Assembly: GCF_030013595.1 (NCBI RefSeq)
Contig: NZ_CP122768.1
Strand: one strand, 5' to 3'
DNA: 64,000 nt
DNA from: Escherichia coli
GTDB lineage: Bacteria > Pseudomonadota > Gammaproteobacteria > Enterobacterales > Enterobacteriaceae
Part shown: positions 27,001 through 30,000 of the stretch, one piece after another
How positions within the stretch are numbered: the first letter of the stretch is position 1
Layout of the letters: every line of letters begins with the position of its first letter
Program-made: the position numbers

Positions 27001-30000
27001 ATTCACTTTTTCTCCCGCATACTTCACATCTGTCAACGACGGATGAAAAGTGGTTCTTCCGCAACCTGGGTGGAAGAAAATGGATGAAACTTTCTGGCGA
27101 ACAAGGATCTAAGCTGTTTTAAGTTATGGGCAACGCAATGCACTCTCTTAAGACACTTCTACAGTTACCTTGCGGATGGCGATGCAGTCGACAAATTATT
27201 AGCTCTGACGGTATAACCCTCCATCTCCACGGAAAACGCAAAACAGCACAATGTCCTGAATGCTTTAAGCGTAGCGACTCTGTTCATAGTTGTCGTCGGC
27301 GCCGGATACAGCATCTACCCTGCTCAGGGCAGACGCTATGGCTTGTATTTTCCGTCCGCCACTGGTACTGCCGTAACCCGGCTTGTTCACGTAAAATTTT
27401 TGCCGAGTCGCTTGCTCCCTTCGCCAGTTCACACCAGCAGTCTTCACAGGCGTTACAAAATTAACAACGTCAACTGGGATTAATAGCTGGAGGTGAGGCT
27501 GGAAAACGGGCTGCAACGGCAGTGGGTCTCCGTTGCAGTGCTGATACTCTTCTTCGCAGGCTTATCAATACCCCGGAGACGAAACAGTCAGGCGCGCCTC
27601 ATGTCGGTATTGATGAGTGGGCGTGGCATCGGGGCCACTGCTGCGGTATGTTAATAGTCAATCCTGATACTCACCGTCCCCTCGTCCTGCTTCCCGGCCG
27701 TGATCAGCGTACGCTGGCGACCTGGTTCAGAAAATATCCGGAAATACAGGTTGTCTCGCGTGATCGCAGTGGAGTCTATGCGACAGCAGCACGTGAAGGT
27801 GCACCTCAGGCCAGACAGGTGGCCGATCGATGGCACCTGCTAAAAAATATTGGTGATGAGCCTGAACGAATGATGTACAGATATATGCCTCTGATACGTC
27901 TTGTTGTCAGAGAGTTATCACTGAAGAAATCACCTGAGCCAGAAATATCTGTGCCTGTAGCATCGCTCCGTCGTCTGGAACGCCTTAAACAGCACATCCG
28001 CAAAAAACGGCATCAGCGTTGGACAGAGGTTATGGCCCTGCATAACAAGGGATGTAGTTTCAGGGAAATATCCCGTATTACAGGCCTGTCGCGAGTGACA
28101 GTCAGTCGCTGGGTGGGTTCAGGAACATTCCCTGAAATGTCAACTAGGCCTCCAAAGCGAGGGCTTCTGGACCCATGGAGGGAGTGGTTAAAAGAGCAAC
28201 GAGAATGTGGTAATTATAACTCCGGCCGGATATGGCGGGAAATGGTGGCCAGGGGGGTTACAGGCAGTGAAACCATCGTCAGGGATGCTGTTGCCAAATG
28301 GCATAAAGGCTGGATCCCACCGGTTACTACTGCCGCAAGACTTCCTTCAGTGTCCCGGGTAAGCCGCTGGTTGATGCCCTGGAGAATAATCAGGGGTGAA
28401 GAAAATTATGCTTTCCGATTTATTAGTCTGATGTGTGAAAAAGAACCGGAGTTGAAAATAGCGCAGCAACTGGTACTCGAGTTCTACCGTATTCTGAAAA
28501 CCTAAAATAAATCACAGCTAAGCAGCTGGTTCACTCGGGTCCACGAAAGCGGCTCAGCAGAACTTCGGTGCGTAGCTGCGGGGATGGAAGCTGATGCTGC
28601 GGCTATATGTGAGGCAATCAGCAGTCGCTGGAGTACTGGTGTTGTCGAAGGTCATGTAAATCGCCTGAAGGTGCTGATACGCCAGATGTATGGTCGAGCC
28701 GGACTTGAACTACTTAGGCGGAGGGTAATGAGTCCACTGGCATGAAAATCTTCACCTAGGTTGAGGAAGAGCCACTTTTGCACTGTTCGTGACAGTATGG
28801 CCTTTATGTACTCACTTTGTTACCGGTAGCTGGATCATCACTACCGTGCCGCAAATGGTGGTGAACAGCATCAATTGTGGAATGAATGTTGCCGAAGCGA
28901 CCAATGCGCCTCGTTTCCACCATCAGTGGTTGCCGGACGAGCTGCGTGTTGAAAAGGGTTTAGTCCGGATACGCTCAAGCTGCTGGAAGCAAAAGGTCAG
29001 AAAGTGGCGCTGAATGAGGCGATGGGCAGCACGCAAAGCATTATGGTTGGGTCGGATGGTGAGTTGTACGGCGCATCCGACTCGCGCTTGGTGGATGATT
29101 TAACGGCGGGGTATTAATTGACATCCCCCGGCGCAATGTGCCGGGGGATAATGGTTTTATGCGGTCAATAATCGTCCGGGATTATCGATACAGAGTTTTT
29201 TGAGGATCGTTTTATCGACGCCGCGCTCCGCCAGATAGGCCAGAAAAACATCTGGAACAAATCCCCAGCCATTACCGCCATTTTTAGCCCACATTTGTTT
29301 AAGGAAGACATCGTGGCTGAGAACAAGCTGATCGGCGTATCCCAACTCAATGAGATGAGCGACGGCATCGGCAGTCTCCTGCACCCCTGGCGCTATTCCC
29401 TCTTTCGGGAAGGTAATGTCTAGGCCAATCATGTCGAATTCCAGCCAGACACCTTTATCAAGCATTTTCCGCTGATACGCCACGTCTTTTCCTGACGGAT
29501 CCGAGTGTGCGAGAGAGACTTTATTTGGCGAGACGCCCATTTCACCTAACACAATGTCGAGTACTTCATCACCGCGACGAAGCCAGCCCGGCATGTGAAT
29601 ATTCATCGCCACATGAGGATTGTTAATCTGTGCCAGCGAGGCAGCCCGCAAGCTGTTATGCTCGGCTTCGGTAAATGTCGGTGAGACACCTATTTCACCG
29701 ATCATTCCGGCACGAATATCCGTATCGCCAATCCCTTGATTCAATTCTTTATCGATCGTTGTCGCTAGTTCATCAACCGTTTTATGAATTCTCTGGCTTT
29801 CAAATTTTTCCAGGTAGGGACCGGAGGAAGCAACAATATTCAGACCTGTTTTTAATGCGACTTCTCGTAATGCCTGCGCATCTCGTCCGATAGACTCAGA
29901 CCCTGTGGCATCAACAATGGTGCGACCACCGAGCGAGATAAAGTTATTAATTTCGAAGATCACATCTTCAATAGGTTTGCGGTCCATATTATCAGCGCAG

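What the first reader, a model, noticed from the sequence alone, without database searches (positions are those of the whole stretch)
27046..29118. Frameshifted ISL3-family element lacking target duplications, abutting a ggt gene remnant
The ISL3-like element has recognisable imperfect terminal inverted repeats but its transposase is broken into three frames and I could not find matching 8-bp direct repeats at the ends. Its right end is followed immediately by the last ~110 codons of a gamma-glutamyltranspeptidase paralog, itself frameshifted and missing 5 codons relative to the remembered GGT sequence. This indicates IS-associated deletion of the 5' part of ggt and adjacent DNA.
Basis: partly seen in the sequence, partly recalled or inferred. 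Interest (0 to 1): 0.35.

Follow-up and report, generated by a model that had tools for sequence, protein, structure and literature searches.

The report
Dead nested insertion sequence beside ggt scrap
This is an old, inactivated insertion sequence (ISEc38 sitting inside the leftover tips of a second element, IS100) next to the useless tail end of a ggt gene, an ordinary and already-annotated scar found in about half of all E. coli genomes.

Summary
The window is E. coli chromosome, in the CP4-44-type island between tmaR/yeeX and cobUST. The features are real but ordinary. The same sequence covers at least 80% of the query in 2745 of 5426 complete E. coli genomes, and RefSeq annotates both genes as pseudogenes.

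- The transposase is not frameshifted. It is one 540-codon frame with two in-frame TAA stops.
- The ISL3 element proper (ISEc38, 1722 bp) is 27052-28773. The 21 bp on either side are the two termini of an IS100 (IS21 family) whose interior is gone. This nesting explains the missing 8-bp repeat.
- The outer IS100-type 5-bp duplication is also absent (ACATC versus GTATG).
- ggt homology starts at 28819, 24 bp beyond the composite, and ends at 29117. It has a 12-nt (4-codon) deletion and a 1-nt deletion.

In Citrobacter species, and apparently Salmonella diarizonae, the neighbouring PTE/DMT/GATase/PfkB module lies next to the native, intact ggt. The tail is therefore best read as the edge of an imported chromosomal segment. 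No E. coli genome has an intact copy or an empty site. An IS-linked rearrangement at the joint is plausible but unproven. Interest is low.

The parts
27031..27051 (.). Terminal 21 nt of IS100 (IS21 family), right-end type read inward (TGTCAACGACGGATGAAAAGT). This is the left tip of the IS100 shell.
   Evidence: It is 21/21 identical to the right end of an intact 1954-bp IS100 in L001:4927-6880. The same tip flanks ISEc38 at unrelated loci.
27052..28773 (+). ISEc38 proper, a 1722-bp ISL3-family insertion sequence with GG...CC ends and roughly 30-bp inverted repeats. This is a decayed copy.
   Evidence: It is 94.7-95.8% identical, without indels, to intact copies. Naked 1722-bp copies with these exact ends and 8-bp duplications occur in L098 (GAAAAAAT) and L099 (AATGCTTT).
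27126..28745 (+). ISEc38 transposase pseudogene. It is one frame of 539 codons plus stop, interrupted by TAA at 27462-27464 (Leu113) and TAA at 28503-28505 (Gln460).
   Evidence: Translation. Pfam DDE_Tnp_ISL3 and Zn_ribbon_ISL3. Intact copies have TTA and CAA at the two positions, and the Q460 stop is shared with ST131. RefSeq notes 'internal stop'.
28774..28794 (.). Terminal 21 nt of IS100, left-end type as its reverse complement (ACTTTTGCACTGTTCGTGACA). This is the right tip of the IS100 shell.
   Evidence: It matches IS100 IRL TGTCACGAACGGTGCAATAGT at 19/21 positions.
28795..28818 (.). 24-bp spacer of unknown origin (GTATGGCCTTTATGTACTCACTTT) between the composite and the ggt homology.
   Evidence: It does not align to E. 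coli or Citrobacter ggt. It is conserved in ST131.
28819..29117 (+). ggt 3' remnant, equivalent to K-12 codons 478-580 plus stop. It has a 12-nt deletion at about 28830 and a 1-nt deletion in the A-run at 28952-28955. It lacks the large subunit and the catalytic Thr391.
   Evidence: DNA alignment to K-12 ggt at 92.5-92.9% identity. Pfam PF01019 matches profile positions 420-509 of 512. RefSeq annotates it as a pseudogene that is frameshifted and missing the N-terminus.
29123..29149 (+). Terminator-like hairpin between the convergent ggt tail and the PTE gene.
   Evidence: (I23)
29157..30191 (-). Phosphotriesterase-family (PTE) gene, the first gene of the imported module. It is convergent with the ggt tail.
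   Evidence: Pfam PTE at E=4.9e-47. It is 86-88% identical in protein to Citrobacter and Salmonella homologs that lie next to an intact ggt.
30194..32757 (-). Rest of the module up to the IS1 insertion: DMT/YdcZ transporter (30194-31159), GATase1-like (31216-31974), and the C-terminal part of the DeoR-PfkB kinase gene (31988-32757). Homology to Citrobacter resumes after the IS1 and runs to 34074.
   Evidence: Pfam. Collinear at about 76% DNA identity with Citrobacter and Salmonella loci over 28824-32755 and 33523-34074.
32758..33525 (.). IS1 (768 bp) inserted in the PfkB gene with a clean 9-bp duplication CTACTTTTG. It serves as a contrast to the duplication-less composite.

Best explanation
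Shown:
- Positions 27031-28794 are a 1764-bp composite. It is a dead ISEc38 (a 1722-bp ISL3-family element) lying between the two 21-bp termini of an IS100 (IS21 family) whose istA/istB interior is gone.
- Active ISEc38 makes 8-bp duplications in AT-rich 8-mers.
- IS100 carries AT-rich 8-mers at mirror-image positions in its two terminal repeats (GCAAWAGT and TGAAAAGT).

Inferred for the composite: two hits at these 8-mers followed by recombination, or one intramolecular jump, would remove the IS100 interior. That leaves tip-ISEc38-tip with no 8-bp direct repeat.

Shown for the right side:
- After a 24-bp spacer comes the last 103 codons of a ggt, with 4 codons deleted and a -1 frameshift. This piece cannot encode an enzyme.
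- It is continuous with a roughly 4.5-kb PTE/DMT/GATase1-like/DeoR-PfkB module. In Citrobacter species the same module sits immediately downstream of the native ggt.

Inferred for the ggt tail:
- The module and the adjoining ggt tail were carried into the CP4-44-type island from the native ggt locus of an Escherichia-level relative.
- The rest of ggt was left behind at capture, or removed by a rearrangement at the IS-marked joint. The composite also lacks the IS100-type 5-bp duplication.
- The structure and the first inactivating stop predate the split between the B2 phylogroup and this strain's lineage.
For: - Identity and spread. The same 2073 bp covers at least 80% of the query in 2745 of 5426 complete E. 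coli genomes, and RefSeq annotates an ISL3 transposase pseudogene and a ggt pseudogene.
- True ends. Intact copies match 27031-28794. Naked 1722-bp copies with 8-bp duplications occur in L098 and L099. The 21-bp tips equal the ends of a 1954-bp IS100 that has a 5-bp duplication TTTGT.
- Composites elsewhere. L003, L005, L009, L010 and the Salmonella relative L093 carry 5-bp duplications. Variants retain 46/20 or 21/56 nt of the IS100 ends.
- Transposase. It is a single frame with two TAA stops and no indels. Compared with an intact copy, 43 codons differ non-synonymously and 31 synonymously.
- ggt tail. Pfam matches at E=1e-20. It is 92.9% identical to K-12 ggt, whereas E. coli ggt alleles are 95-100% alike. 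It shows 12 synonymous against 9 non-synonymous differences.
- Continuity. Homology to E. coli ggt stops at the stop codon, but homology to Citrobacter and Salmonella runs on through the spacer into the PTE gene.
- Synteny. An intact 580-aa ggt lies next to the PTE gene within yhhY-module-ggt-yhhA-ugpQ in three Citrobacter species, and next to the PTE gene in S. diarizonae.
- Negative searches. There are 0 of 5426 genomes with an empty site and 0 with an intact ggt next to PTE. The stretch 5' of the breakpoint is essentially single-copy, with 5432 places in 5424 genomes.
- Age. ST131 shares both junctions, the spacer, both ggt deletions and the Q460 stop.
Against: - No donor genome was found. 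PTE homologs jump from the E. coli cluster (99-100%) to 88% in Salmonella and Citrobacter, so the Escherichia-level origin rests only on the ggt tail's divergence.
- The 24-bp spacer is unexplained.
- It cannot be told whether ggt was cut at capture or afterwards.
- The two-hit or intramolecular origin of the composite is inferred. No IS100 with ISEc38 in only its left repeat was found in 5426 genomes. This would fit equally well if one composite arose rarely and was then moved as a unit by IS100 proteins supplied in trans.
- ISfinder could not be consulted, so the names rest on RefSeq product names.
Confidence: 0.75

Rival explanations
1. First reader's model. A full-length second ggt once lay at this site in the E. 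coli island. The ISL3 element inserted into it, and a transposase-mediated adjacent deletion removed the 5' part of ggt and neighbouring DNA.
For: - There is no target duplication at any level.
- The ggt breakpoint is only 24 bp from the composite.
- The module is bracketed by IS remnants. IS66-family pseudogenes lie at its other end.
- An intact ggt sits beside the same neighbour in Citrobacter and Salmonella.
Against: - The missing 8-bp repeat is explained by nesting inside IS100 ends, which is seen at many unrelated loci.
- The IS end does not abut ggt, because 24 nt of other sequence intervene.
- No genome among 5426 keeps an intact or longer island ggt.
- If a mobile element made the cut, the outer ends are those of IS100, not of the ISL3 element.
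Confidence: 0.3
2. The 1764-bp composite was inserted as a unit, by IS100 IstA/IstB supplied in trans, into a pre-existing joint between the island backbone and the already-truncated ggt. Its 5-bp duplication has since mutated away.
For: Composites with perfect 5-bp duplications exist at other loci. No single-insertion intermediates were found.
Against: The flanks ACATC and GTATG differ at 3 of 5 positions. Yet both flanks are more than 99% conserved across about 2800 genomes and identical in ST131. Three substitutions within 5 bp are unlikely.
Confidence: 0.1
3. The ggt tail is an intragenomic duplicate of E. coli's own ggt 3' end that decayed in place. It would then be a true paralog rather than imported DNA.
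For: E. coli ggt is the closest sequence found, at 92.9%.
Against: - Homology to E. coli ggt ends exactly at the stop codon, whereas homology to the Citrobacter and Salmonella ggt locus continues into the PTE gene.
- The divergence lies outside E. coli ggt diversity of 95-100%.
- It is weighted towards synonymous changes (12 against 9). Most of it therefore accrued in a functional gene.
Confidence: 0.05
4. The ggt-like segment is unrelated sequence or a chance resemblance.
For: none
Against: There are 294 aligned nt at 92.9% identity, Pfam G_glu_transpept matches at E=1e-20, and RefSeq annotates it as ggt.
Confidence: 0.01

Closest known systems
ISEc38 (ISL3 family insertion sequence of E. coli)
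   Same: The transposase has the same 539 codons and the same Pfam domains. The 1722-bp body has the same GG...CC ends and is about 95% identical in DNA to copies that RefSeq names 'ISL3-like element ISEc38 family transposase'.
   Different: This copy is dead, with two nonsense codons. It is about 5% diverged from active copies, has no 8-bp duplication, and is enclosed by IS100 termini.
IS100 (IS21 family, 1954 bp, istA/istB, 5-bp duplication)
   Same: The outermost 21 nt on each side match the IS100 ends at 21/21 and 19/21 positions, in the outward-facing arrangement of a real IS100.
   Different: The istA/istB genes and the inner binding-site repeats (GATCCAC motifs) are absent. There is no 5-bp duplication here.
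E. coli ggt (gamma-glutamyltranspeptidase, b3447)
   Same: The tail aligns to codons 478-580 at 92.9% DNA identity and keeps the same stop codon position.
   Different: Only the last 18% of the gene is present, with a 4-codon deletion and a -1 frameshift. The downstream DNA is unrelated to the K-12 ggt locus but is related to the Citrobacter and Salmonella ggt locus.
CP4-44 cryptic prophage / island of E. coli K-12 (flu, yeeP-yeeW, yoeA)
   Same: It occupies the same chromosomal slot between tmaR/yeeX and cobUST and carries Ag43, a YeeP-like GTPase and a TonB-plug remnant.
   Different: This longer version carries the Gp2-family and zinc-ribbon genes, the composite IS and the PTE module. From my own knowledge of the K-12 map, which I did not test here, K-12 lacks these.
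IS4321/IS5075 (IS110/IS1111 family), which insert into the terminal repeats of Tn21-type transposons
   Same: The analogy is an insertion sequence found again and again at a fixed position inside another element's terminal inverted repeats. The basis is my own knowledge.
   Different: The family and chemistry differ. ISEc38 also inserts elsewhere with ordinary 8-bp duplications, so any preference for IS100 ends is at most a hot spot and is not shown to be specific.

Membership tests
ISL3 family insertion sequence | DDE transposase of the ISL3 type (Pfam DDE_Tnp_ISL3) with an N-terminal ISL3 zinc ribbon | tested here: met
   PF01610 scores 92.9 bits against a cut-off of 23, and PF14690 scores 28.9 against 25.5, on the read-through translation.
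ISL3 family insertion sequence | Terminal inverted repeats beginning with GG | tested here: met
   The left end GGTTCTTCCGCAACCTGGGTGGA at 27052 pairs with GGCTCTTCCTCAACCTAGGTGAA, the reverse complement ending at 28773.
ISL3 family insertion sequence | 8-bp target-site duplication | tested here: not met
   The flanks in the window are TGAAAAGT and ACTTTTGC. Sister copies L098 and L099 do meet this feature.
ISL3 family insertion sequence | Uninterrupted transposase reading frame (an active element) | tested here: not met
   There are two in-frame TAA stops, at codons 113 and 460.
ISEc38 | Near-identity over the full length to the reference ISEc38 in ISfinder | tested here: inconclusive
   The copy is 94.7-95.8% identical over 1722 bp to copies that RefSeq labels ISEc38 family. 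ISfinder itself is not available here.
IS100 / IS21 family | Terminal sequences of IS100 | tested here: met
   The termini match an intact 1954-bp IS100 at 21/21 and 19/21 nt.
IS100 / IS21 family | istA and istB genes | tested here: not met
   Only 21 nt of each end remain, and the interior is ISEc38.
IS100 / IS21 family | 5-bp target-site duplication | tested here: not met
   The flanks here are ACATC and GTATG. The feature is met by IS100 in L001 and L094 and by composites L003, L005, L009, L010 and L093.
Gamma-glutamyltranspeptidase (Pfam PF01019, Ntn hydrolase) | Sequence homology to the family domain | tested here: met
   E=1e-20 over profile positions 420-509 of 512.
Gamma-glutamyltranspeptidase (Pfam PF01019, Ntn hydrolase) | Complete precursor with the large subunit and the catalytic threonine (Thr391 in E. 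coli) at the start of the small subunit | tested here: not met
   Only the equivalents of codons 478-580 are present, and they are frameshifted.
IS-mediated adjacent deletion | The IS end directly abuts the truncated gene | tested here: not met
   A 24-bp stretch that is not ggt lies between 28794 and 28819.
IS-mediated adjacent deletion | Loss of the target duplication, and an intact reference arrangement elsewhere | tested here: inconclusive
   The duplication is absent. An intact ggt-PTE arrangement exists only in other genera at about 76-84% DNA identity, and none exists in 5426 E. coli genomes.

The most novel reading that the evidence does not exclude
ISEc38-type ISL3 elements, including relatives at 74-79% identity in Salmonella and Klebsiella plasmids, are mostly found enclosed by the termini of IS100-like IS21-family elements. 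The core sits in either orientation, with breakpoints always in AT-rich 8-mers just outside a GATCCA repeat of the IS100 ends. This could mean either of two things. The ISL3 element may preferentially invade and hollow out IS100. Alternatively, the resulting 1764-bp chimera may be a non-autonomous IS100 derivative that IstA/IstB move in trans, leaving 5-bp duplications. Neither reading appears in the papers I could search.
Probability: 0.3. Interest if true: 0.35.

Novelty: already known. Interest (0 to 1): 0.12.

Why it matters
It matters little for biology. This is a fixed scar in a well-known variable island of E. coli, and automated annotation already calls both genes pseudogenes.

There are three practical points:
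- Mobile-element finders that report 'ISEc38' in E. coli chromosomes are often detecting this dead copy.
- The absence of a target duplication around an insertion sequence is weak evidence for a neighbouring deletion when the element is nested in another element's ends.
- The ggt scrap marks the PTE/DMT/GATase/PfkB module as DNA lifted from a native ggt locus. This may help to date and trace that module.

Tried and rejected
- I first read the conserved 1764-bp unit with TGTCA ends and 5-bp duplications as the true ISEc38, with about 50-bp repeats. I rejected this once the tips proved to be IS100 ends and naked 1722-bp copies with 8-bp duplications turned up.
- Core inversion by recombination between its own repeats, as the reason for the two tip arrangements, is not excluded and was not tested. 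Core phylogeny does not follow tip arrangement.
- A four-junction query for IS100 carrying ISEc38 in only one end was confounded by IS100 deletion derivatives.
- The two single-junction queries gave no true intermediates. L094 is an IS100 inserted beside the tip, and L095 is an IS100 truncating the core. The right-end junctions were not searched.
- Donor hunt. The PTE protein search found nothing between 88% and the E. coli cluster. P0007, at 91%, is the same island with a frameshift. The ggt-tail protein search returned only fragments.
- The genome-contig scan gave Citrobacter and Salmonella synteny but no Escherichia donor.
- Plasmid pWP4-S18-ESBL-07_1 carries the module at 99.2% identity with a shorter tail and the same frameshift. 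It is therefore a recent derivative and not an ancestor.
- Strain SW071610 (L007) shows a secondary IS66-linked deletion and not an empty site.
- Literature searches on ISEc38 returned only lists of mobile elements.
- Rfam found nothing in 24000-31000, and no promoter-like sites were found.
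Full report
**Context.** The window is E. coli chromosome. Four tRNA-Asn genes and tRNA-Ser(CGA) lie at 41-61 kb. cobU-cobS-cobT-ldtA lie at 37.6-41 kb. An Ag43 autotransporter, a YeeP-like GTPase and a TonB-plug remnant lie to the left and right of the finding. RefSeq annotation of an identical stretch in strain L73 shows this to be the CP4-44-type island between tmaR/yeeX and cobU.

The 2073 bases of the finding recur at 100% identity in many genomes. They cover at least 80% of the query in 2745 of 5426 complete E. coli genomes. 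RefSeq already annotates 'ISL3 family transposase (pseudogene, internal stop)' and 'gamma-glutamyltransferase (pseudogene, frameshifted, missing N-terminus)'.

**The insertion sequence.**
- Translation of 27126-28745 in one frame gives 539 codons plus stop. Only two interruptions occur, TAA at codon 113 and TAA at codon 460.
- The ORF has the same length as intact copies, and the 1722-bp body aligns to them without a single indel at 94.7-95.8% identity.
- Pfam finds DDE_Tnp_ISL3 and the ISL3 zinc ribbon.
- Intact copies have TTA and CAA at the two stop positions. The ST131 (phylogroup B2) copy shares the Q460 stop but has a different second stop, at codon 88. The element was therefore already dead, and already at this site, before these lineages split.
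- Compared with an intact copy, 43 codons differ non-synonymously and 31 synonymously. This fits relaxed selection.

**Where the element ends.**
- That 1764-bp unit begins TGTCA and ends TGACA. It is flanked by perfect 5-bp repeats in L003 (ACAAC), L005 (AGTAC), L009 (CAAGA) and L010 (GCTCC), and in a 79%-identical Salmonella relative, L093 (GTCCG).
- The outer 21 nt on each side are the ends of IS100. An intact 1954-bp IS100 in L001 has TGTCACGAACGGTGCAATAGT|GATCCAC at its left end. At its right end, read inward, it has TGTCAACGACGGATGAAAAGT|GATCCAC. It carries a 5-bp duplication TTTGT.
- The window's tips match these at 21/21 and 19/21 positions.
- Naked ISEc38 copies of exactly 1722 bp (GG...CC), without tips and with canonical ISL3-type 8-bp duplications, interrupt yehY (GAAAAAAT, L098) and a serine hydrolase gene (AATGCTTT, L099) in mouse E. 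coli strains.

So ISEc38 proper is 27052-28773, and it sits inside the shell of an IS100 whose interior is missing. The 8-mers next to the core (TGAAAAGT on the left, ACTTTTGC on the right) are the mirror-image AT-rich patches of the two IS100 terminal repeats. This is why they look like an extension of the inverted repeat and why they are not a direct repeat.

- Variants retain 46/20 nt (L008) or 21/56 nt (L100) of the IS100 ends. A Klebsiella relative retains 21/55 nt (L092).
- The core occurs in both orientations relative to the tips.
- Tip arrangement does not follow core phylogeny: the L008 core is 99.6% identical to the L002 core but has the opposite arrangement.
- I infer that two ISEc38 insertions into the two IS100 repeats followed by recombination, or one intramolecular jump, produced such composites.
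- I found no IS100 with ISEc38 in its left repeat only among 5426 genomes. Movement of a finished composite by IS100 proteins in trans therefore remains a live alternative.

**Target duplications in the window.** None exists at any level. At the ISL3 ends they are TGAAAAGT/ACTTTTGC. At the shell ends they are ACATC/GTATG for 5 bp and TTCACATC/GTATGGCC for 8 bp. The inner absence is explained by the nesting and carries no information about ggt. The outer absence means that at least one flank is not the original insertion flank. By contrast, the IS1 in the nearby PfkB gene (32758-33525) has a clean 9-bp duplication.

**The ggt remnant.**
- Alignment with K-12 ggt shows homology from 28819 (GTTACCGGTAGC, codon 478) to the stop codon at 29115-29117, at 92.5-92.9% identity.
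- There is a 12-nt deletion between two CGGTAGC repeats (4 codons) and a 1-nt deletion in the A-run at 28952-28955.
- The repaired translation hits Pfam G_glu_transpept at E=1e-20, over the last 90 positions of the profile only. The large subunit and the catalytic threonine are absent, so the piece is non-functional.
- Between the composite (28794) and the ggt homology lie 24 nt (GTATGGCCTTTATGTACTCACTTT). These align to no ggt.
- Both deletions, the spacer and the junctions are identical in ST131.
- A plasmid copy of the module (L011) has the same frameshift but is cut further in, at the equivalent of 28942.

**Origin of the remnant.**
- Homology to E. coli ggt stops exactly at the stop codon. 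The K-12 downstream sequence is unrelated.
- A scan of one genome per species with the neighbouring PTE-family protein returned Citrobacter species and Salmonella diarizonae as the closest homologs, at 86-88% protein identity.
- In all four of those loci, and in none of the more distant ones, a ggt lies convergent just downstream of the PTE gene. It is full-length in the three Citrobacter loci and cut by the locus end in Salmonella.
- In Citrobacter this is the native ggt. The order is yhhY, a 294-aa gene, DeoR-PfkB, GATase1-like, DMT, PTE, then ggt, yhhA, ugpQ, ugpC.
- The window aligns collinearly with these loci from 28824 through the intergenic spacer to 34074, interrupted only by the IS1.
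- The tail is as far from Citrobacter ggt (82-84%) as K-12 ggt is (84-85%). It lies outside the 95-100% range of E. coli ggt alleles.
- Its differences from K-12 are 12 synonymous and 9 non-synonymous. Most of the divergence therefore arose in a working gene of another lineage.

I conclude, by inference, that the module with the adjoining ggt tail was lifted from the native ggt locus of an Escherichia-level relative into the island. No donor was found. PTE homologs jump from the E. coli cluster to 88%, and the ggt-tail protein search gave only fragments.

**Tests of the deletion model.**
- A simulated empty site (27030 joined to 28795) is present in 0 of 5426 genomes.
- The left flank 26820-27030 occurs once per genome, in 2848 genomes, and in no other context apart from one deletion variant.
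- The ggt stretch just 5' of the breakpoint is essentially single-copy, with 5432 places in 5424 genomes, all at least 95% identical to K-12.
- A query joining that stretch to the tail and the PTE gene finds no genome with an intact ggt next to PTE.

So there is no trace in E. coli of a fuller version. DNA 5' of codon 478 was certainly lost relative to the ancestral locus, and the joint is marked by a duplication-less mobile element. Whether the loss happened at capture or by a later IS-linked deletion cannot be told. The 24-bp spacer argues against a simple IS-end-to-gene deletion joint.

**Verdict.** The finding is a real but ordinary and already-annotated pseudogene cluster. Its interpretation is only partly supported. 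The one mildly unusual thing is outside the brief. ISEc38 and its relatives recur inside the ends of IS100-type elements, which I could only partly follow up.

Noticed in passing
window 27031-28794; L002-L005, L008-L010, L092, L093, L100, L101: ISEc38 and its 74-79% identical relatives in Salmonella and Klebsiella plasmids are usually enclosed by 21 nt (sometimes 46 or 55-56 nt) of each end of an IS100-like IS21-family element. The core sits in either orientation, and 5-bp duplications often flank the composite. Breakpoints always fall in an AT-rich 8-mer just before a GATCCA repeat of the IS100 end.
   Followed up: partly
L098:429-2150 and L099:429-2150: Mouse-gut E. coli strains RSHH22 and M8 carry naked, intact 1722-bp ISEc38 copies with 8-bp duplications inside yehY and a serine hydrolase gene. 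They have 7-9 matching places per genome, so the element appears to be active there.
   Followed up: partly
L094:2649-4640 (strain L16-131, same island): An intact IS100 has inserted exactly against the IS100-type tip of the dead composite, with a 5-bp duplication GCTGT. An IS100 has thus landed right beside a relic of its own end.
   Followed up: partly
window 32758-33525: IS1 (768 bp) interrupts the DeoR-PfkB kinase gene of the module with a clean 9-bp duplication CTACTTTTG. The gene is intact in ST131 (L091) and in plasmid L011.
   Followed up: yes
window 28819-34074; L012-L015: The four-gene module (DeoR-PfkB kinase, GATase1-like, YdcZ-type DMT transporter, PTE-family hydrolase) is conserved next to the native ggt in Citrobacter and Salmonella. 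More distant homologs occur in Proteus, Providencia and many actinobacteria. Its substrate is unknown.
   Followed up: partly
L011:6001-10365 (plasmid pWP4-S18-ESBL-07_1): The same module, 99.2% identical, sits on a 184-kb E. coli plasmid. Its ggt tail is even shorter, starting at the equivalent of window 28942, and has the same frameshift. This shows that the module still moves between replicons.
   Followed up: partly
window 26820-27030: A 211-bp non-coding stretch lies between the zinc-ribbon genes and the composite. It is unique to this island, with one place per genome in 2848 genomes. Homology to other CP4-type islands stops at 26819.
   Followed up: partly
window 27126-28745 (and L002:1596-3215): The ISEc38 transposase, at 539 aa, is long for the ISL3 family. 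Its DDE_Tnp_ISL3 match is split into two stretches around a helix-turn-helix-like insert at residues about 293-338.
   Followed up: no
window 12077-12532 and 15245-18520: An IrmA (interleukin receptor mimic) gene and a full-length Ag43/Cah autotransporter gene lie in the same island.
   Followed up: no
window 41076-60846: Four tRNA-Asn genes and tRNA-Ser(CGA) lie here, with no large island inserted at them in this strain. The 2299-aa ORF at 51395-58294 is probably the yeeJ adhesin. That name comes from my memory of the K-12 map and was not tested.
   Followed up: no
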